A stretch of DNA of 62,879 bases, counting the filler, from Stramenopiles sp. TOSAG23-2 (lineage: Eukaryota), in the NCBI GenBank assembly GCA_900128395.1. It is 19 parts of 19 records of this genome, joined end to end, with 100 filler letters (N's around TTAATTAATTAA, not from the genome) between each part and the next. Parts side by side here need not be neighbours in the genome. Positions count along the whole stretch, not along the records: positions 3,452 to 6,801 come from LT651246.1; 18 more parts are not named here. One strand, written 5' to 3'. The position numbers and the translations under genes are program-made. Within the stretch, counting starts at the first letter, position 1. Each line of letters begins with the position of its first letter. Below are positions 3,352 to 58,077 of the stretch, one piece after another. The notes below the pieces were generated by a model. That model made no database searches. It had not been told where the DNA came from and worked only from the letters and a program-made list of their open reading frames with translations.

Positions 3352-3451
3352 NNNNNNNNNNNNNNNNNNNNNNNNNNNNNNNNNNNNNNNNNNNNTTAAT
3401 TAATTAANNNNNNNNNNNNNNNNNNNNNNNNNNNNNNNNNNNNNNNNNNNN
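3352..3451. other. Artificial contig linker N44-TTAATTAATTAA-N44 (also at 6802, 10251, 13698, 17142, 20586, 24024, 27461, 30896, 34331, 37764, 41195, 44621, 48045, 51467, 54887, 58307, 61727)
   Basis: Identical 100-nt spacer with stops in all six frames. Contig lengths never increase, falling from 3351 to 3320. Confidence 0.99.
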
Positions 3452-3512
3452 AATTGACTATTTTCACTATCTTCAATATCATCAATTGAAGGAGGCAGTT
3501 GAAGAACACCCA
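3452..3512 (-). CDS. 5' start of an unknown gene (MGVLQLPPSIDDIEDSENSQ...), cut by linker
   Basis: ATG at 3512 after an AT-rich leader; frame open to contig end. Confidence 0.4.
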
Positions 3513-3980
3513 TATATATATATTTATGAGTAAATAAAATATCTTTTTAAATTTGAGTAAGAGAATTTTTTATATTTTTTATAAAAAAATATACATGTAC
3601 GCGTCGTATTTTTTTATGACTATATATAAATTATTATATATATTAAAAATATTAATACCTCTCTAAATATAAACTTCTAAATAGATTTTTTACCAACATA
3701 TTTTATACCCTGGTATCATACTCTAAATTTAAAGGCCCGTGTACGTATTATTTTTTTTCGGCGGTAAATTTAAAATTGTTTTGATTTTTTTTAAATATCA
3801 TATTACACTCTATCAGTAGATGATACGACAACAAATTACACACAAACTATTGAATATGCAATTACGATATTTAATATATATGTACACATGAACGTTTTTG
3901 TATTCACATAATGTTAGATAAATTTTCAGTATTATTATGTACTATGATATGTAAAGGCGTATGATATATATATAAATATG

Positions 3981-4206
3981 TATAAATATAATTTTGTACG
4001 GGTGCGTAGCGCTCGCTGGCCATTGACAAGGCCATGGAGCGACTCTAAAAGACAACCGGTTTATCTTGCATCCGTACAAACCCTGTAAATCAGTATAAAT
4101 ATAATTTTGTACGGGTGCGTAGCGCTCGCTGGCCATTGACAAGGCCATGGAGCGACTCTAAAAGACAACCGGTTTATCTTGCATCCGTACAAACCCTGTA
4201 AATCAG
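3981..4206. repeat. Exact 113-bp tandem duplication (3981-4093 / 4094-4206), probably an assembly artefact
   Basis: Two identical copies; similar ~100-bp duplications occur at 5761 and 19445. Confidence 0.9.
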
Positions 4207-4248
4207 AGGATAAATCCGTCATTACAAGGCTCTAGACGTTGCTGAATT
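4100..4248 (-). ncRNA. Unclassified structured RNA (K-turn-like hairpin followed by a three-way junction)
   Basis: GC-rich island in AT-rich DNA. Stems: GCCUUGUAA/UUACAGGGU enclosing AUGACGG...CUGA; UUUGUACGGAUGC/GCACCCGUACAAA; AAGAUAA/UUGUCUU; CGCUC-UGGCC/GGCCA-GAGCG. Confidence 0.55.
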
Positions 4249-4352
4249 TATTTATTAAAAGATATATATATATGTACTGATATATTTGTATCTGCCCAGA
4301 TATATATATCCAATTGTAAACATTATTACATGCAACAACAACAAAAATAAAA

Positions 4353-4428
4353 GCCATCAAGAAAAAAGTTCCGGATCATTCTTTTACGTCACACGAAAGA
4401 TGGTTGAAAAATATTTTCATCATATGGC
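4353..4428 (-). ncRNA. Box C/D snoRNA guiding 28S 2'-O-methylation at the yeast Am807-equivalent site (snR39/snR59-, U32/U51-type function)
   Basis: Terminal stem GCCA/UGGC, box C AUGAUGA, D' GUGA, D UUGA. The guide ACCAUCUUUCG is complementary to conserved 28S CGAAAGAUGGU, and the +5 rule points to the second A after the G. Confidence 0.85.
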
Positions 4429-4515
4429 ATTTTTTGTATAGCAGTATATATATGTATATATATATGTTTTAAAAAGCAGAATCCAGCAGTTATATATATT
4501 TTTGTATCTAGAAAA

Positions 4516-4694
4516 TTGTCCTAAGTTCTCATAATCCTTTAATGTGGCATGGGAGCCTCGTGGGTAATGTTCAAAGTCTTTCTCGCCAATCGATTCATCA
4601 ATAATATAACTAAATATAATATATCAAAAACTACAAAGGCTTACAGTGTTTTGTCAACCCGCTCCTTAACTATAAAATCTTCATCACTGGACAA
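4516..4694 (-). ncRNA. Long box C/D snoRNA, candidate snR4-like 18S helix-34 acetylation guide
   Basis: Terminal stem UUGUCC/GGACAA; C GUGAUGA (4687-4681), D' UUGA (4627-4624), C' UUGAUGA (4601-4595), D AUGA (4532-4529). CCAUGCCACAUU can pair with 18S GGUGGUGGUGCAUGG with bulges. Confidence 0.65.
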
Positions 4695-5006
4695 AATTTA
4701 TATATATAGACTATACCAGAATTTCATTATGTTGTATATATATATATATATGTAAAATGATAGTACTTACAACATTAGTATCACTTCATATTATTCAATT
4801 TTTTATTATCCTTCTACTTATTCATTAGATCATGTAATCGGTAACTCGAATATAATTATATATATTGCTAATTATAATATTAAAATGTTAGATGTAAAAA
4901 TTATTACTGAAAATAGGGGGTATCATATATATGAATGTATATGTTTGTGTGTTTGTATATATCTATATATATATGTATTTTATATTTATCAAAGATAAAT
5001 ATAAAA

Positions 5007-5197
5007 AAATGTAACTAGCCCATTAGTAGGTAAAGAAAGGTGTTTCCTTAATCTACCTGTAAAGTGACAGACAGTCTAGAGTTGTCTGGCTCCTGTATAA
5101 CTTTATTCAAGATATACATTTATTCTTGGCAACATTAGTTAAAAGTCTACCCATAATAATTCCATTACAGAGGGGATGCTTTAGGCAAAGTCGCCGC
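5007..5197 (-). ncRNA. Box H/ACA snoRNA candidate with three hairpins
   Basis: 5' hairpin GGCGAC/GUUGCC followed by H box AGAAUA; middle hairpin UGUAUA/UAUACA; second ANANNA (AGACAA); 3' hairpin CUAG/CUAG with upper stem AGGUAGA/UUUACCU 15 nt from ACA; ACA followed by a U-run. Confidence 0.7.
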
Positions 5198-5270
5198 GTA
5201 TGTGTGATATATTTCAACTCAAAATATTTCACATCGGTATATATATATATATATTTATATTAAACAAGAT

Positions 5271-5386
5271 GAGCTCAGACATCCAAGGAAGTATTCGTCC
5301 TACACAAATTTACGGTATGGCTAACCTTATCACTTTAAGGGATGTACTGCGAATGGTTGGGAAACCGGTTTTTTCTATCATCGCTC
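5271..5386 (-). ncRNA. U14: U14 (SNORD14/snR128) box C/D snoRNA
   Basis: Terminal stem GAGC/GCUC, C-like GAUGAUA, domain A CAUUCGCAGU and domain B CUUCCUUGGAUGUCUGA. These are the diagnostic U14 18S-antisense elements. Confidence 0.95.
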
Positions 5387-5523
5387 TTGTTTAATAAATG
5401 CATATATATATATATATATATATAGGTGTTTGTATGTGTGTTTATATGATGATGTATGTAGTTTTGTGTAATATATATCGTATTTTTTCTTTTGCAATTT
5501 GTGTTACTTTAAAAAAAAAAAAA

Positions 5524-5641
5524 AGAGTCAGAAAAGGAGTGCGAGTCCTGTATTTTTAGAACTGATTTCTTCATATGGCATCTAGTGGGTAGAAATACCT
5601 AAGAAGCAAAACTGGCATGTTCATGACGTTCATCATTCTCT
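5524..5641 (-). ncRNA. Orphan box C/D snoRNA (118 nt)
   Basis: AGAG/CUCU terminal stem, perfect C box AUGAUGA (5636-5630), D box CUGA (5531-5528), internal AUGAAGA C'-like motif. Confidence 0.8.
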
Positions 5642-5760
5642 AATTTGTTTTTTTTTTTTAGCAATATACAATATATATGTATGTCTGTCTGTATGTAAAA
5701 AGATGTATATATATATATATATATAGAATCTGTATGAATGTAAAACTTACTTTTAAATTT

Positions 5761-5970
5761 CTTGTAATTAACACTATAATAGTAGTAAAATATTGTTTTT
5801 ATTCAAACTATATTTGTTCGTGGTAATTGATTTCTTATCATTGTTGCTTCTAACATTAGATAATGCTTGTAATTAACACTATAATAGTAGTAAAATATTG
5901 TTTTTATTCAAACTATATTTGTTCGTGGTAATTGATTTCTTATCATTGTTGCTTCTAACATTAGATAATG
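5761..5970. repeat. Exact 105-bp tandem duplication, probably an assembly artefact
   Basis: 5761-5865 is identical to 5866-5970. Confidence 0.85.
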
Positions 5971-6142
5971 TTATCAAACAATATGAATAGCTGTGTCAAC
6001 AGATGTAGGAGATATATATCGATCTCTTTGTTTCTGCCATACATGTGTGTGTGTGTGTCACTCTGTGTATATCCAATTTGGATGGGATTTAGATTTGGTT
6101 GGTTCTCAAAGAAAGGACGTCTTACAGACTACAGTATGAAAC

Positions 6143-6770
6143 CGCATGGCATCAATGGCATGGCAATGGCATTACGATGGCATTGTCATGGCATCTCAAT
6201 GGCATTGTAATGGCATTTTACAGGTACTTTTTATCCTAAACTCCAACGACAGTTCCCCCATTGTATTTCCTGTTAAATCATTTCCCCCTATATTTGGTGC
6301 ACATATCACCTTAATTCTAAAAATGGTAAATATATAATGGCATTTTAATGGCATTTTCCGATTCTAATTTTCCCTTAGACTACTCCTATATATGCAAACA
6401 GAGACCATTCCTAAGGAGAACAGTAAAACATGTATGTATAAACTATAATGTACTTCAATATCTACTGTTACATCAGCAATTGACCTATATAATCATCTTT
6501 CAATAGAAAATCACCAAAAGATTGAATATAAAAAGTTTTTTCAAAAATATATTCAAAAACTCAAGTTTGGTGTAATTGCAATGCCATTGCAATGCCATTG
6601 CAATGCCAATAGAAAGCCATATAAAAAAACAAAATTGGTGCCACCATGATGCCATCACACTGCCAAAACAATGCCAATACAATGCCATTTTAATGCCAAT
6701 ATGGTATAGCAAAGATCAATTTTTGAAATGCCATCATGCTGCCAAGCTGATGCCATTGCAATGCCATATT
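6143..6770. mobile_element. Putative foldback/MITE-like element with inverted arrays of an 11-bp unit (AATGGCATTGC-like)
   Basis: ATGGCA units at ~11-bp spacing at 6143-6220 and 6335-6356; reverse-complement TGCCAT arrays at 6576-6612, 6648-6700 and 6727-6768. Confidence 0.5.
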
Positions 6771-6901
6771 GTAAATATACCTTAATAATACCTTAAACAA
6801 TNNNNNNNNNNNNNNNNNNNNNNNNNNNNNNNNNNNNNNNNNNNNTTAATTAATTAANNNNNNNNNNNNNNNNNNNNNNNNNNNNNNNNNNNNNNNNNNN
6901 N

Positions 6902-48361: not shown

Positions 48362-49807
48362 TTAATCTTTGGATGATTTCTTCTTCTTCTTCTTTTTCTT
48401 TTTTTTATCTTTCTTTTCTTTCTTTTTTTTCTTTGCTTTCGGTTCATCGTCTGAATCATCATTATCTACATCCATAGCACTACTAGATCTTTTTAAACTT
48501 TTACCAACTTCATTCATACAATCTATGTTTTTCCTTGGTGCATCACCTGTGTCGTAAAACTTTAAACGTTCTTCCACTTGTGATTTCATCATTTCCCCAT
48601 ATTCTTTCGTAGCAACTTCAGAAAATGCATCAATTCTTGAAGCAATTGAACATTTATTAGCTAAATATCTTGAAATTCTACCTTTATTCTTTGCACCTGC
48701 ACGACCAATAAAACTGGAATGAAAGATCAAACCATATTTAGGAGTATTGCCACGGGTTTTCAATGCACGGAACAATGCTTTTTCTGCCCCTAAAATTTGA
48801 ACAGTAGATGCAGGAGCTTTTGCTAAATTTGTTAAACTTCCAGCATGTGATATTAAACGTGCGCCAACTACTTCCCCAATTAAAGCTTTTAAATTTGGTG
48901 CAACACGATCCATACGATCATTTAAATATTCATACAATTGATGTCTATATTTCGTCAACGAGATTACACGATCCGCAAAACTTTTGACGTTGAACATATC
49001 GACAACTGAAATGTCCATCCCCATCGATGTTTTCAATGCATTTGCCACTTGATCTGCAAGGCCATCATCATCTTCATCATTGTCCATTAAAATATCTTTT
49101 AATTCATTTAATTTAGCTTCATCAAATGAACTGCGCATTTGGATAAGCGATGCACAACGGCAGAATAAAAAATTATCTTTCACAATTTTATTCATTTCTG
49201 GGAAATGCCATGAATACCATTCCCGGCAACGCATGGAGAACGTATTAATGTCTTTGTCCAATTGATCCAACAACGAGATTGCTTGTATGATCATATTGTC
49301 ATTACGATTTACATTAAATTTCACTTTGCAACGGGAATAACTATGACCTAAACCAAGTTGTGCACGTTCTTGATTACCACCATCTAACTCTTTTACAAAA
49401 CGATGAAAATGGTTCCTTACACCTCTTAAAAGCTCTTTTGTAATCTCTTCGCATTTACATGGAAATCCTAAGCCTTCGTTAATGGAATTGCCTAATTTTG
49501 CATCGGATACACCAACCCAAAACTTAGCTTTTTTACCTTCTTTCACTTTTGGTAAATTTAGTTCCAAAAAGTCTTTTAATGTATCGTTAACAATACCTTC
49601 CGAGATATCATTAATGTTACTTAGAGCATCTTGTGCATCTTTGAATGGAACGAAACTAACGTATTTCACAAATTTACTGAATAGTTTTAAATCATTGATA
49701 GCCTCTTCCACTTCTGGTACCTTCGCACCAATTTCTTCTGCTTCAATTACTTCAAATAATGAATATCCAGCAGCAGCTTCATATAATAAATAAGCACCTT
49801 TTGGCAT
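48362..49807 (-). CDS. NOP56: Nucleolar protein 56 (box C/D snoRNP core)
   Basis: [54 protein letters not shown] and a KKE/D tail. Confidence 0.97.
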
Positions 49808-50395
49808 GATATTTTATATAATTATATTTATTTTATTTTATTATTATTGCGTAGATTAGCGTTGGTTAATATATATATATATATATGTATATATATGTAT
49901 GTATATTCTTCAACTTCTTCAACTTTAAATGAAAAAATATAATTTGTTACTTTCTAGTATAAATTCTGTCTGATTCTCTGTGTATGTATATCTTGTACCT
50001 TCCAACAGACAGGACAGGACAGTATAGTAAGTAGATGTATATACAGTAAATCTGGATATATTACATGTATTATACATATACATATAATTTATTAATATTA
50101 TTTATTTAATACATGGCACCATTGGTGTTGTGTTCTGCATCTTCCCTTTTCGTCCTAATAAGAGTGTCGTGCTGTCGACCATCCAATCTTTGGAACATTG
50201 GTTTTAACATTACACAGTATTGAAAAAGAGGCAAATCCCACCAAATACTGGAATATGATCTATCGATAGGGCTCTAGCTATATATAGTCGTCTATAGTGC
50301 TATCTATAATAGACTACCACACACCATGGTGGTAGATCTATAGTATTTATTTTTATGGTCGATTCCTCGTATAAGAAATTAATTAATTTGTGACA

Positions 50396-54449: not shown

Positions 54450-55695
54450 CCTCTTTTGTGTGAATCTGTTTTTTAATTTGTATATATTTTATATATGTAC
54501 TTTCACTTGTTTGTATTTCAATAATCGGGACTAGTTGTTGTATTTATAGTTTGATGAATTAAATTTGATGTTTTTAATAATAAATAAATAATAAATAAAA
54601 ATACCAAGTGCCGTGAAAGGCAAGGACCCCTGCCCTGAATTTATGTAAAAACGATGGAAATGTTGTTAAACAAGGAGAAAGTTAAGGAGGAAATTTGAAT
54701 TTACACGAGCGGGTATAATGGTAATAAATTCTTATTCGTGTAAATTGAGTTTTAATGTGGCTGGAAGTGCGGTATAGCAGGGTGATAGGTTGTATTGAGA
54801 GTATCAGAAAAGCGGAGGTTTGTTTTTTTGTTATGTAAGAATCGTTTTTTACGGTGGAAGTTTTCCCTATACTATGTCTATGGTAANNNNNNNNNNNNNN
54901 NNNNNNNNNNNNNNNNNNNNNNNNNNNNNNTTAATTAATTAANNNNNNNNNNNNNNNNNNNNNNNNNNNNNNNNNNNNNNNNNNNNTTCATAGCAACCAT
55001 TGTCTTGGATGACAATAGGTTGTGGTTGCAATGCACAAAATATAATTTTACAATTTACATTTTTTATATTTTTATATTTTTATATAAATAAATAAAAAAA
55101 AATACCGTCGTCGCGTTTATAGCTGAAAGGAAAGTGTTTTTATAAAAAGCATTATTAATACACAGCATTGCAATTTTTTTGGATTAGACGCATGATGTAT
55201 TATAAAAATATATAGAGCTACCTGATGTATAAAATAATTTAAGTTTACCATACACAACACACAATTTATTAAATTATTTTTTTTATTAATTTACTCGTAC
55301 ATATTATATCAAATTATTTCAGTTATTTTATTCTTTTGAAGAGTAGGAATTATCATGAGTAAATTAANNNNNNNNNNNNNNNNNNNNNNNNNNNNNNNNN
55401 NNNNNNNNNNNNNNNNNNNNNNNNNNNNNNNNNNNNNNNNNNNNNNNNNNNNNNNNNNNNNNNNNNNNNNNNNNNNNNNNNNNNNNTGAAGAGTAGGAAT
55501 TATCATGAGTAAATTAAAAATAAATTATGCGTAAATTAAATTATATCAAATAAATACGAAGTACGAAGTATGATATTATATTGGATAAATCTATCTCATT
55601 CGCCCTCCTTTAATTATTTGCACACAGCATCATACAAAACGTATATCTTCGACGTACGATAATATTAACACGCCATTTCTATCATACTATGACTA

Positions 55696-58077
55696 TTATA
55701 TATTTCGTTGGTTGTTATTTTGGGTTATATGTGTAGCTTGAACAATCGGTACCGGCTGGGCGCCTCCGGGATGTTGCATTATTTGTGGTTGTACCATCAT
55801 TCCTTGTTGTTGCATCATTCCTTGTTGTGCCTGTGGTTGCATGCTAAAGCTACCGCGGTTCATATTAAAGCTGCCGCGTTGCATATTGGGATGATTTTGT
55901 GGTACCATCTGAACATTAGTGGCAGCTTGTACACCAATTGGTTTGTTTCTATCATGTACATGTCTCCCTTTCGATCGTTGACGAAACACCATAACACCAA
56001 CCACACAACAACAGCAAAATAAAATTGGAAGGATTATTGCTAATATCAACCCGCCTGAATTCCCTTTACAATGATCCATATACACTTGCTCAATAGTGGC
56101 ACCTGTTGGAATATATGGTGCTTCACTATTAATGGGTGTAATTTGACAATACTTTTCTGAAGCCTTTGGAGAAATAACTTTTCCTGAAGTATCACCTTGT
56201 TGAGTAAAATCGTATTTAACACATTGGCTAGATCGTTTTTGTAACCTAACAGCTAATACTGAATCATCTAAACTTGCACCAAAATCAGCAGCTAATACAT
56301 CAATTCCAACAACGCCGTGAAACACACGTTTGTTGGTTTTTGCATCATTCGCATATACAGGCACTGCAACAGTTGTCATTTTACCCTGCCCACTTGAATC
56401 CATATAAAATTCTGACCACCTAGGTGTCGATGAGGCATTGCCAAGAGGAATTTTATCTGAAAAATATTCAAAATATCGTATCATAGCATGTTTCAATGCC
56501 GCTGGATCTCCATCCTCGACCTTTGCAAACCATCCATCATTTTCGCATGCCAATTGGGCAGGAATAGTCTCATCGGCGCCATTTCCTAATGCATATGTAA
56601 ATATGTGTGGAGATGGATTGCCTAATGCAGTTTTTTGATCATCCATCCAATCCTTCCACTGATCCCATTCATTATCATTCATTTTACCATCTGTTAAGAA
56701 AGATATAATACGTTCACAACCCGCTGAGTTTTGCGCGCCTCCTGCGTCAGAATTCTGTGATTTTCTAAATATCTCAAATGCTTTCTGTATCCCACATTGA
56801 CCACATGTACTACCTTGTGCTTTAATTTCCTGAATATACTCTTTCAATTTGTTTTTATTTTCATCGGTACCTCTTACCACTGTTGATTAATTAAATTATG
56901 TATTTATGTATGTATGTGTGTGTGTGTGGGTGTTTATGTCTATGTTAGAAAATTATAAGTCAATTGACACATATGAGTGTTTGTATGTGTGTGTAGGTAC
57001 CAAATATAAGTATAAAACTTACATGTTCCACTGTTGGATCGAGCACCTGTGCTGTAAACTACAACCTGAATAAAATCAGAAAATGTAGCAGTGTTTAATT
57101 GTGCTATAGCAGCCTCTTTCATAATTTCTAGACGTTCTTTTTCAACTACTTCCTCTTCTCCGTTCTCGTTTATTTCCTTCACTTCCTCTCTCTCTCTCTA
57201 NNNNNNNNNNNNNNNNNNNNNNNNNNNNNNNNNNNNNNNNNNNNNNNNNNNNNNNNNNNNNNNNNNNNNNNNNNNNNNNNNNNNNNNNNNNNNNNNNNNN
57301 NNNNNNNNNNNNNNNNNNNNNNNNNNNNNNNGGCATACCATGGTCTATATCTAGGATCATATGTATCACACCAACACATCGTCTTAATGGATGCAGGATA
57401 TTGAGCAAACAGACCGGTCTCTTGCCCACCAAAATACTGCCAAGAAGTAGTGGCTGCTAAGTCACCGTAAATTGTATCCCCTTTCGCACTTCTATCAAAA
57501 GCCTTTCCAGCCATTGATGCTGCGCATACTTCTGCGCGAACTTTGTCGTTCTGTGGTGTATCTGGTTGGATTTTATATCCCGTATAATCGCCTGTACGTG
57601 CCCCTTTAAATTTTTCATTCTTCTCTAATTTTTGTGGTGTATTCTTACCATCTGTTGGGCGCGTATCCTCGTAAGTAACTTCGTACGTGTTACCTTCTTC
57701 TTCACTGTGTACATACTTTCCTCCTTGTTNNNNNNNNNNNNNNNNNNNNNNNNNNNNNNNNNNNNNNNNNNNNNNNNNNNNNNNNNNNNNNNNNNNNNNN
57801 NNNNNNNNNCTTCGTCACTCTTTACATACTTTCCTCCTTGTTCTTCGTCTGGCATACACATATCGGGAAATTTATAGTCACTGATTCCATCGCAAATAGA
57901 AGCACTTAAACCCTGTGCATCGATTGTTTGGAATGCTTTAATTATTTCGTTAGCAGCATCCATAGCCATCAATTCCCTGGTAGACATTGCATCTCCACTT
58001 GTATCGCAGTACGAAAATGGCACAATGTTTGATAAAATAAGTATCGTAGTGGTTACAAAATGAATAATACTAACCAT
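55696..58077 (-). CDS. Alpha2-delta/CACHD1-like VWA-Cache membrane protein; intron 56880-57022; two internal N gaps
   Basis: Signal peptide, WQYFG..TG.F..YPA, YDPRYRPWY, FLTDG, IFTYALG, WSEFYMDSSGQG, GVVGIDV, TM plus CCCC. The GTAAGT...ACAG intron restores SGTLVRGT. Confidence 0.88.

What the first reader, a model, noticed from the sequence alone, without database searches (positions are those of the whole stretch)
4516..4735. Candidate snR4-type C/D guide for 18S helix-34 cytidine acetylation in a non-fungal protist
Seen: a ~180-nt minus-strand RNA with C, D', C' and D boxes and a UUGUCC/GGACAA terminal stem, but no obvious methylation guide abutting D or D'. An internal element CCAUGCCACAUU (4552-4541) can pair with bulges to 18S GGUGGUGGUGCAUGG. 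An element upstream of box C, CAACAUAAUGAA (4734-4723), can pair more weakly to 18S UUCUUAGUUG. These targets flank the CCG of helix 34. Established: yeast snR4 uses two split guides on these flanks to direct Kre33/NAT10 acetylation of C1280. To my knowledge it is characterised in fungi, and the equivalent guide is not established in most other eukaryotes. Inference: this is an snR4 homologue. Blocks such as UUAUAGU..UAAG, GGGUYGA, UUGGYGA.AAAGACU, AUUACCC and GCCACAUUAA resemble my unverified recollection of yeast snR4.
Basis: partly seen in the sequence, partly recalled or inferred. Interest (0 to 1): 0.88.

Follow-up and report, generated by a model that had tools for sequence, protein, structure and literature searches.

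The report
Long atypical box C/D snoRNA, maybe acetylation guide
A 179-base small nucleolar RNA gene sits in a cluster of such genes in a marine microbial eukaryote, and one of its hairpin loops could pair next to the acetylated cytidine of 18S rRNA helix 34, but the two guide elements first proposed are no better than chance and kinship with yeast snR4 is unproven.

Summary
The minus-strand element 4694-4516 is very probably a real box C/D-type snoRNA. It has a canonical box C, a C' box and a 6-bp terminal stem. It lies in a one-strand cluster that includes U14 (Rfam E 1.9e-8). It has no CUGA anywhere: D is at best AUGA, and D' is CUGU or UUGA.

The upstream one (4734-4723) is weak (-2.8 kcal/mol) and no better than shuffles (P 0.62). 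The internal one (4552-4541) is the 3' strand of a predicted hairpin.

A different element fits the published yeast snR4 layout. The 11-nt loop of that hairpin (4571-4561) forms 9 bp with 18S 1262-1270; the yeast GS2 target is 1264-1271. This site is the loop's best target in all 3 full 18S and better than anything in 5 partial 28S sequences.

Shuffled whole molecules match the helix 34 flanks about as well. No GS1 was found, and Rfam gives no snR4-like hit. Similarity to published yeast snR4 fragments is marginal (p 0.014-0.04). No divergent homologue or read evidence could be obtained.

Verdict: real atypical snoRNA (about 0.85); snR4-like function plausible (about 0.4); family membership not shown.

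The parts
4516..4694 (-). Whole candidate RNA, about 179 nt. RNA nt n corresponds to window coordinate 4694-n.
   Evidence: Sequence read. G+C island. Lies in a snoRNA cluster with U14. A near-identical copy in metagenome locus L019 has 0 differences in the 164 overlapping positions. The fold is no more stable than shuffles (z -0.52), which is usual for snoRNAs (my own knowledge).
4689..4694 (-). 5' strand of the terminal stem, UUGUCC. It pairs with GGACAA at 4521-4516.
   Evidence: The MFE and centroid structures pair 5 of the 6 positions.
4681..4687 (-). Box C, GUGAUGA (canonical RUGAUGA)
   Evidence: Weak Rfam alignments to C/D families start here.
4667..4680 (-). Block after box C, AGAUUUUAUAGUUA. 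It resembles the yeast snR4 fragment complementary to probe snR4-3, and Rfam families ceN111 and snoR130.
   Evidence: the fragment aligns to nt 5-24, p 0.014 against 1000 shuffles, and the alignment includes the box C letters; ceN111 22.9 bits, E 0.091; snoR130 17 bits, E 1.8; both far below their gathering scores.
4654..4660 (-). GGGUUGA. It could form 4 bp (GGGU with ACCC) with the guide loop, the kind of pseudoknot described for yeast snR4. The yeast probe fragment has GGGUCGA.
   Evidence: Sequence. Yeast fragment from PMC12848939 section 20. Pseudoknot description in PMC5464676 section 8. This is inference only.
4602..4626 (-). A+U-rich hairpin between a D'-like UUGA (4627-4624) and box C'
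   Evidence: RNAfold. It corresponds in position to the 'variable helical region that bridges D' and C'' of the yeast model.
4595..4600 (-). Box C', UGAUGA
4545..4588 (-). Predicted hairpin downstream of C' (nt 106-149).
   Evidence: The same hairpin appears in the MFE and centroid structures of the full RNA and of nt 100-161 alone.
4561..4571 (-). 11-nt hairpin loop AACAUUACCCA, the proposed guide (GS2-like). CAUUACCCA pairs with 18S UGGGUGGUG (yeast numbering 1262-1270): 9 bp including 2 G-U, -13.2 kcal/mol.
   Evidence: A random 11-mer of the same composition does as well with probability 0.0028 (20000 trials). The site is the best target in 3 of 3 full 18S, and no site in 5 of 5 28S 5' pieces comes within 3.3 kcal/mol.
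4541..4552 (-). More likely structural (helix strand) than a guide.
4529..4532 (-). AUGA, the only D-like motif near the 3' end. It starts 39 nt after the loop begins; in yeast the conserved region starts at nt 146 and box D at nt 184, a distance of 38 nt.
   Evidence: Yeast positions from PMC6171561 passages.
4723..4734 (-). Not supported as a guide.
   Evidence: -2.8 kcal/mol. The upstream stretch is no better than 62% of 2000 shuffles.
5271..5386 (-). U14 snoRNA in the same cluster (context, not part of the candidate)
   Evidence: RF00016, 48.4 bits, E 1.9e-8, full model length

Best explanation

Its most likely specific job is to work like yeast snR4. Box C, box C' and the terminal stem assemble the core C/D proteins. 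The 11-nt loop (4571-4561) of the hairpin downstream of C' pairs with the 5' strand of 18S helix 34 (yeast numbering 1262-1270), 9 nt upstream of the CCG. This holds that strand open so that the acetyltransferase NAT10/Kre33 can acetylate the middle C.

A second element pairing 3' of the CCG was not found. The RNA may therefore act through one antisense element, as reported for Drosophila SNORD13.

Shown: the boxes, the stem, the cluster context and the complementarity. Inferred: expression, the hairpin, the pairing in vivo, any link to NAT10, and acetylation of helix 34 in this organism.
For: Real snoRNA:
- Canonical box C, box C' and a 6-bp terminal stem.
- A G+C island in A+T-rich spacer.
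- A same-strand cluster with U14 at E 1.9e-8 and other C/D-like and H/ACA-like units, each preceded by a (TA)n tract.

The layout matches the published yeast snR4 description:
- Yeast: length 194 nt (PMC5934358 passage); box C conserved, C' conserved, no clear D', a conserved 10-nt region between C' and D (PMC6171561 passages).
- Here: 179 nt, C and C' present, no clear D'. A hairpin downstream of C' has an 11-nt loop that pairs with 18S 1262-1270.
- Loop start to the D-like motif is 39 nt here and 38 nt in yeast.

Specificity of the loop:
- A random 11-mer reaches this match with probability 0.0028.
- The helix 34 5' strand is its best target (-13.2 kcal/mol) in 3 of 3 full 18S rRNAs. Nothing better than -9.9 occurs there or in 5 of 5 28S 5' pieces.
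- A shuffled loop reaches -13.2 anywhere in 4.1 kb of rRNA in 5 of 100 trials.

No significant canonical methylation guide abuts any D-like or D'-like motif in the rRNA available (P 0.35, 0.35 and 0.10).

There is weak collinear similarity to yeast snR4 fragments from published probes: p 0.014 for the box C fragment and p 0.04 for the region after the box.

One antisense element suffices for Drosophila SNORD13 (PMC9226516 discussion passage).
Against: - If any position in the RNA is allowed, complementarity to the helix 34 flanks is ordinary: P 0.20 and 0.49, 0.45 and 0.37. The loop is significant only because its position was taken from the literature, after I had already seen the match.
- No GS1-like element lies within 47 nt upstream of box C. 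In yeast, disrupting GS1 abolishes acetylation.
- Box D is not CUGA, and it lies 7 nt from the stem.
- No Rfam hit to any acetylation guide.
- Yeast fragments F1 and F2 do not align significantly.
- No divergent homologue was found, so there is no conservation or covariation test. The only relative, L019, is identical over the 164 candidate positions it overlaps.
- The organism's own rRNA was not available. The rRNAs used come from unrelated eukaryotes, and the last third of 28S was not covered.
- The hairpin rests on single-sequence folding, and the whole fold is not unusually stable (z -0.52).
- Yeast, vertebrate and plant acetylation guides are independently transcribed and capped. This one sits in a cluster.
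Confidence: 0.4

Rival explanations
1. It is a real box C/D snoRNA, but a 2'-O-methylation guide or a composite one. Its target would lie in RNA I could not test: this organism's own rRNA, the 3' third of 28S, or snRNAs. The degenerate AUGA or UUGA would serve as D or D'.
For: - It sits among ordinary modification guides.
- nt 19-27 form 9 bp with the conserved 28S site UAACUAUGA, just before AGGA, in L028. L057 has a variant of the site. The other three 28S pieces end before it.
- nt 53-65 form 13 bp with one bulge and 2 G-U to 18S AACUGCGAAUGGCU, one nt before UUGA. This is the site bound by U14 domain A (my own knowledge). Seen in 2 of 2 18S tested.
- nt 147-161, before AUGA, reach -14.4 kcal/mol in one 18S.
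Against: - None of these beats shuffles: P 0.35, 0.35 and 0.10 (100 shuffles each).
- No contiguous Watson-Crick run of 10 or more next to a D-like box was found in 3 18S and 5 partial 28S sequences.
- There is no CUGA at all.
- 179 nt is about twice the usual length of a methylation guide (my own knowledge).
Confidence: 0.25
2. It is a real box C/D snoRNA that modifies nothing. It would act as an rRNA-folding or processing chaperone (as U3, U14 domain A, U8 or snR190 do), pairing with pre-rRNA through one or more of its single-stranded segments.
For: - Long, with degenerate D and D' and no convincing methylation guide.
- It has possible pairings with two 18S regions that matter in early assembly: 18S 83-96 and the helix 34 5' strand.
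- It is clustered with U14.
Against: - No similarity to any Rfam processing snoRNA at E up to 10.
- The pairings other than the loop are at chance level.
- This reading overlaps with the acetylation-guide reading, which also needs helix 34 pairing.
Confidence: 0.2
3. It is not a functional RNA. The box-like motifs and the stem arose by chance, or it is a decayed snoRNA pseudogene within the cluster.
For: - No CUGA.
- The fold is not more stable than shuffles (58 of 200 fold as well).
- No Rfam family.
- No expression data.
- The cluster shows recent tandem duplications, so gene turnover occurs.
Against: - G+C island.
- A perfect RUGAUGA followed 87 nt later by UGAUGA, bracketed by a 6-bp stem.
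- The spacing and the (TA)n flanks are like those of its neighbours.
- 0 of 164 positions differ in L019, against 6 of 430 outside the candidate. This is only a weak signal; I estimate P about 0.1.
Confidence: 0.12

Closest known systems
Saccharomyces cerevisiae snR4 (box C/D guide for Kre33 acetylation of 18S C1280, helix 34)
   Same: - Length class: 179 nt here, 194 nt in yeast.
- Boxes C and C' present, no clear D'.
- A long variable A+U-rich helix before C'.
- A hairpin after C' whose loop is complementary to the 5' strand of helix 34: 1262-1270 here, 1264-1271 in yeast.
- Similar loop-to-D distance (39 nt against 38 nt).
- CAGU before the box, then UUAUAG, UAAG and GGGUYGA after box C, also occur in published yeast probe-derived fragments.
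   Different: - No GS1 before box C.
- D is AUGA, not CUGA, and is set 7 nt from the stem.
- It sits in a multi-gene cluster rather than being a lone capped gene.
- No significant overall sequence similarity could be shown; only 89 nt of yeast sequence were available, and only as probes.
- No Rfam hit.
SNORD13 / U13 / snR45 (helix 45 acetylation guides)
   Same: - The same kind of mechanism: a box C/D scaffold with imperfect antisense pairing beside a CCG.
- Little sequence conservation between lineages.
- The Drosophila form works with a single antisense element.
   Different: - No antisense run of 10 nt or more to the 18S 3' end lies in the candidate; the hits found elsewhere in the window are scattered in other pieces.
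- The loop's best target is helix 34, not helix 45.
Canonical box C/D methylation guides (for example the neighbouring U14 box D guide)
   Same: Box C, box C', a terminal stem, and cluster organisation.
   Different: - No CUGA.
- No complement of 10-20 nt abutting D or D' in the rRNA tested.
- About twice the usual length (my own knowledge).
Rfam ceN111 (nematode) and snoR130 (plant) C/D families
   Same: They share box C plus the following GAUUUUAUAGUU or AUUUUA stretch.
   Different: - Scores are 22.9 and 17 bits against gathering scores of 43 and 40.
- Only the first 25-27 and last 4-5 model positions align, with the interior shown as local-alignment gaps.
- E values of 0.09-1.8 in a 451-nt search, so the matches are not significant.

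Membership tests
snR4-type helix 34 acetylation guide | Box C/D scaffold: box C, box D and a terminal stem | tested here: inconclusive
   Box C GUGAUGA and a 6-bp stem are present. There is no CUGA. The only D-like motif is AUGA, 7 nt from the stem.
snR4-type helix 34 acetylation guide | Conserved C' with no clear D', and a long variable helix between them (PMC6171561, PMC5464676) | tested here: met
   UGAUGA at nt 94-99. Only CUGU or UUGA could serve as D'. An A+U-rich hairpin spans nt 68-92.
snR4-type helix 34 acetylation guide | GS2: a loop abutting a helix downstream of C', complementary to 18S 1264-1271 | tested here: met
   Loop nt 123-133 of hairpin 106-149 forms 9 bp with 18S 1262-1270, -13.2 kcal/mol. 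This is the top target in 3 of 3 18S. It is in silico only, and the structure comes from one sequence.
snR4-type helix 34 acetylation guide | GS1: a conserved 5' end before box C, complementary to 18S 1286-1290. Essential in yeast. | tested here: not met
The 47 nt upstream plus the stem give -5.1 kcal/mol against the 3' flank; 62% of 2000 shuffles do as well. The RNA's true 5' end is unknown.
snR4-type helix 34 acetylation guide | Pseudoknot between the GS2 loop and nucleotides downstream of box C | tested here: inconclusive
   Only 4 bp are possible (GGGU at nt 34-37 with ACCC at nt 129-132). There are no homologues with which to test covariation.
snR4-type helix 34 acetylation guide | Sequence homology to fungal snR4 | tested here: inconclusive
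   - No Rfam hit at E up to 10; I do not know whether Rfam has an snR4 model.
- Three probe-derived yeast fragments were aligned: p 0.014 (includes the box C letters), 0.63 and 0.99.
- Combined test of the region after the box: p 0.04.
- The fourth fragment was compared by eye only.
- The full yeast sequence and the published alignments (supplementary figures) were not available.
snR4-type helix 34 acetylation guide | Binds Kre33/NAT10 and is required for ac4C at the helix 34 CCG | not testable with these tools
   Needs cross-linking, ac4C mapping and a knock-out.
snR4-type helix 34 acetylation guide | Independent Pol II gene with a capped 5' extension | not testable with these tools
   The gene lies in a cluster with (TA)n tracts before each unit. 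These tracts could be TATA promoters or processing stems.
Canonical 2'-O-methylation guide snoRNA | Antisense of 10-20 nt ending within 2 nt of D or D', to rRNA or snRNA | tested here: not met
   Tested against 3 full 18S and 5 28S 5' pieces from unrelated eukaryotes. The best segments are at chance level (P 0.35, 0.35, 0.10). The 3' third of 28S, the snRNAs and the organism's own rRNA were not tested.
SNORD13/snR45 helix 45 guide | Antisense elements to the 18S 3' end flanking C1773 | tested here: not met
   No perfect antisense run of 10 nt or more to the last 47 nt of an 18S lies in the candidate.

The most novel reading that the evidence does not exclude
This is the first helix 34 acetylation guide outside fungi. 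It would be an snR4 counterpart in a marine protist that keeps the C, C', hairpin-loop and D layout and the same 18S target strand, but has lost or never had the 5' guide, and is made from a snoRNA cluster. RNA-guided acetylation of helix 34 would then predate the split of opisthokonts from this lineage. The conserved loop-in-hairpin signature could be used to find the still-unknown guide in animals and plants.
Probability: 0.35. Interest if true: 0.75.

Novelty: new variant of a known kind. Interest (0 to 1): 0.5.

Why it matters
Helix 34 of 18S rRNA is acetylated in yeast, plants and humans. Its guide RNA is known only in fungi. [quoted passage not shown] My two literature searches on the subject listed no paper reporting a non-fungal helix 34 guide.

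A verified counterpart in a distant protist would show that the mechanism is ancient. It would also give a structural search signature: box C', a hairpin, a loop antisense to GGGUGGUGG, and box D about 38 nt later.

If the pairing is coincidental, this is one more orphan box C/D snoRNA in a protist cluster, which is ordinary.

Tried and rejected
- Whole genome: none is held.
One search was a format error.
- Supplementary files of papers were not opened. The snR4 alignments of PMC5464676 (S2 Fig) and PMC6171561 (Suppl. Fig. 6) may bear directly on homology.

**Expression**
- The look-up of sequencing runs listed 24 runs. Of these, 20 hold part of the 1.7-kb cluster, and 6 are marine metatranscriptomes holding 0.20-0.47 of the 157 sampled words.
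This is therefore no evidence of expression.

**Homologue hunt**
- Viral-contig scans with candidate or U14 patterns gave one chance hit in a giant-virus bin (L001) and two empty results.
- The single metagenome scan gave 17 loci. One is real and near-identical (L019); the other 16 are unrelated matches, including a repeat family carried by four loci.
- There is no paralogue in the window.

**Getting yeast snR4**
- The genome search control genomes contain no U14, so I infer they hold no eukaryote.
- Only four probe or primer sequences from papers were available.

**rRNA**
- Four viral-contig scans with universal rRNA motifs were empty.
- A helix 34 motif gave two partial 18S sequences.
- The genome-contig scan gave 62 loci, which I take to be eukaryotic rDNA contaminants in bacterial assemblies; 16 are 1.5 kb or longer.

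**Analyses that gave nothing usable**
- Whole-RNA RNAduplex scans against 18S give many -17 to -20 kcal/mol solutions with large loops. Helix 34 does not stand out, so that approach was dropped.
- nt 38-49 pair with 18S 1296-1306 in L002 (-10.7 kcal/mol). The target has C instead of U in L003 and in 3 of 3 full 18S, so this was not pursued.
- nt 109-117 against 18S 1247-1255 has the wrong polarity to extend the loop duplex.
- timed out and was rerun.
- The snoR130 lead: the name is absent from PMC2875012 (0 occurrences).

Full report
**What is there**

On the minus strand, 4694-4516 reads as follows (RNA nt n = coordinate 4694-n):
- UUGUCC (5' stem), then A, then GUGAUGA (box C, 4687-4681).
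- 80 nt of mostly A+U-rich sequence.
- UGAUGA (box C', 4600-4595).
- A G+C-richer 3' domain.
- AUGA (4532-4529), then GAACUUA, then GGACAA (3' stem).

There is no CUGA in the RNA or in the spacer that follows it. Box D is at best AUGA. D' is at best CUGU (4646-4643) or UUGA (4627-4624).

**Context**

The window is made of about 3.35-kb pieces joined by N-TTAATTAATTAA-N linkers. The candidate's piece is 3452-6801.

Its minus strand carries a row of G+C islands separated by (TA)n tracts:
- A C/D-like unit at 5641-5524 (AUGAUGA ... CUGA, with an AGAG/CUCU stem).
- U14 at 5386-5271 (RF00016, 48.4 bits, E 1.9e-8, full length).
- An H/ACA-like unit at about 5225-5015.
- The candidate.
- A 76-nt C/D-like unit at 4428-4353.
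- Two tandem copies of a 113-nt H/ACA-like unit at 3973-4206.

This context is the main reason to accept the candidate as a real snoRNA gene. At its curated thresholds, Rfam finds nothing in the whole window.

*Rfam.* At E up to 10, the stretch 4400-4850 gives 9 weak matches. None is to an acetylation guide. The best are ceN111 (22.9 bits, E 0.091) and snoR130 (17 bits), and both align only over box C and the following GAUUUUAUAGUU.

*The upstream element CAACAUAAUGAA (4734-4723).*
- It pairs with UUCUUAGUUG at only -2.8 kcal/mol.
- The whole 53-nt upstream stretch reaches -5.1 kcal/mol, matched by 62% of 2000 shuffles.

*The internal element CCAUGCCACAUU (4552-4541).*
- It gives -11.6 kcal/mol with a 2x2 internal loop.
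- In both the MFE and centroid folds it is the 3' strand of a hairpin spanning nt 106-149.

*The whole 178-nt RNA.* Complementarity to either flank of the CCG is ordinary.
- Best contiguous helix: P 0.20 (5' flank) and 0.49 (3' flank).
- Best 14-nt window energy: P 0.45 and 0.37, joint 0.21.

The observation 'antisense to both flanks' is real but not beyond chance.

**What fits instead**

The published description of yeast snR4 is as follows:
- Length 194 nt (PMC5934358 passage).
- Box C at nt 15-21, box C' at 123-129, no clear D', box D at 184-187, and a conserved region at 146-155 that is not in a methylation-guide position (PMC6171561 passages).
- GS1 is nts 1-5, before box C, pairing with 18S 1286-1290.
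- A pseudoknot forms between that loop and nucleotides downstream of box C.
- A variable helical region bridges D' and C' (PMC5464676 section 8).

In the candidate, the hairpin downstream of C' has an 11-nt loop, AACAUUACCCA (4571-4561).
- CAUUACCCA forms 9 contiguous pairs (2 of them G-U, -13.2 kcal/mol) with UGGGUGGUG.
- That is 18S 1262-1270 when the middle C of CCG is numbered 1280. The numbering agrees with the primer-extension targets Um1269 and Gm1271 named in PMC5464676.
- The loop starts 39 nt before AUGA. In yeast the conserved region starts 38 nt before box D.
- GGGU at nt 34-37 could pair with ACCC in the loop.

How specific is the loop match?
- A random 11-mer of the RNA's composition does as well with probability 0.0028.
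- The helix 34 5' strand is the loop's best target in one partial 18S and in 3 of 3 complete 18S rRNAs. The next best site anywhere in those, or in 5 of 5 28S 5' pieces of about 2.2 kb, is -9.9 kcal/mol or weaker.
- A shuffled loop reaches -13.2 somewhere in 4.1 kb of rRNA in 5 of 100 trials.

These rRNAs come from unrelated eukaryotes that I take to be contaminants in public assemblies. The helix 34 sequence is identical in all five 18S sequences seen.

One caveat matters. I chose the loop after seeing the match. The literature position narrows the search to perhaps 15-20 nt, so my own estimate is that a fair P is a few per cent, not 0.003.

**Homology to yeast snR4**

Four oligonucleotides complementary to snR4 are printed in papers (PMC12848939 section 20; PMC5464676 methods).
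- The reverse complement of probe snR4-3 aligns to candidate nt 5-24 (CAGU-GAUGA.GAU--UUAUAG), p 0.014 against 1000 shuffles. The alignment includes the box C letters themselves.
- The reverse complements of probes snR4-1 and snR4-2 are not significant, p 0.63 and 0.99.
- An order-constrained test of the region after the box gives p 0.04. Three neighbouring C/D units score lower: 16-20 against 25.
- A metagenome pattern built from two other recalled blocks found no fungal or other divergent sequence. Of the 17 loci, 1 is real, and it is identical over the 164 candidate positions it overlaps.

Homology is therefore neither shown nor excluded.

**Rival functions**

Segments next to D-like motifs have their best rRNA matches at chance level: P 0.35, 0.35 and 0.10. 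Two are worth noting.
- nt 19-27 against the conserved 28S site UAACUAUGA.
- nt 53-65 against 18S AACUGCGAAUGGCU, 13 bp with a bulge. This is the site bound by U14 domain A (my own knowledge).

Neither excludes a methylation or chaperone role. The organism's own rRNA, the 3' third of 28S and the snRNAs were not tested.

**What is missing**

- GS1, which is essential in yeast. Drosophila SNORD13, however, works with one antisense element (PMC9226516 passage).
- A canonical box D.
- Any divergent homologue.
- The lineage of the organism. The runs that hold the DNA are marine; 'stramenopile' was not checked.

**Comparison with the known, and novelty**

The element works most like snR4 in layout and in target strand. 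It cannot be filed as a member of that family. One defining feature (GS1) was tested and not met, and sequence homology is inconclusive.

No paper listed by my two searches on the subject reports a helix 34 guide outside fungi. PMC9670809 says none is known in humans. PMC9226516 has no occurrence of 'stramenopil' or 'protist' in its main text.

**Verdict**

- Real atypical box C/D snoRNA: about 0.85.
- snR4-like acetylation guide acting through the loop 4571-4561: about 0.4.

Noticed in passing
window 3973-5641, minus strand: A one-strand snoRNA gene cluster. Members:
- C/D-like unit at 5641-5524.
- U14 at 5386-5271.
- H/ACA-like unit at about 5225-5015 (ends ...ACAUUU).
- The candidate.
- C/D-like unit at 4428-4353 (GCCAU/AUGGC stem, D-like UUGA; weak Rfam hit to snoMe28S-Am982, E 1.1).
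- Two tandem H/ACA-like copies at 3973-4206.

Each unit is preceded by a (TA)n tract. These tracts could be TATA promoters or self-pairing processing stems.
   Followed up: partly
window 5761-5970: A perfect tandem duplication: period 105, 2.0 copies, 100% identity. The unit contains AAUGAUAAG and UUUGAAU motifs, so it may be a recently duplicated small C/D-like gene.
   Followed up: no
window 6146-6217, 6335-6357, 6575-6701: Arrays of an 11-nt period motif built on AATGGCATT or ATGCCATT, in 3-6 copies each, lie at one end of the snoRNA cluster. AAUGCCAU also sits at the very start of the C/D unit at 4428. This could be a repeated protein-binding site, for instance a promoter or enhancer of the cluster.
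   Followed up: no
window, every ~3.4 kb (e.g. 3352-3451, 6802-6901): The window is not one contiguous stretch. About 18 pieces of about 3.35 kb are joined by N44-TTAATTAATTAA-N44 linkers, with further N runs at 55368-57809. Neighbouring pieces need not be adjacent in the genome.
   Followed up: partly
L019:1-772 vs window 4679-3787: A metagenome contig carries the same locus at 99% identity. It has one copy instead of two of the 113-nt H/ACA-like unit, and unrelated sequence beyond window 3787. One of its 6 differences (window 4427, C to T) turns a G-C pair of the 4428-4353 snoRNA stem into G-U.
   Followed up: partly
window 48362-49813, minus strand: An uninterrupted ORF of 483 aa with a lysine-rich tail. 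By eye it looks like a Nop56/Nop58-type core C/D snoRNP protein. No family search was run.
   Followed up: no
They sit in assemblies labelled as bacteria (Streptomyces, Granulicella, Collinsella MAGs and others). This suggests that eukaryotic rDNA contamination of prokaryote assemblies is common.
   Followed up: partly
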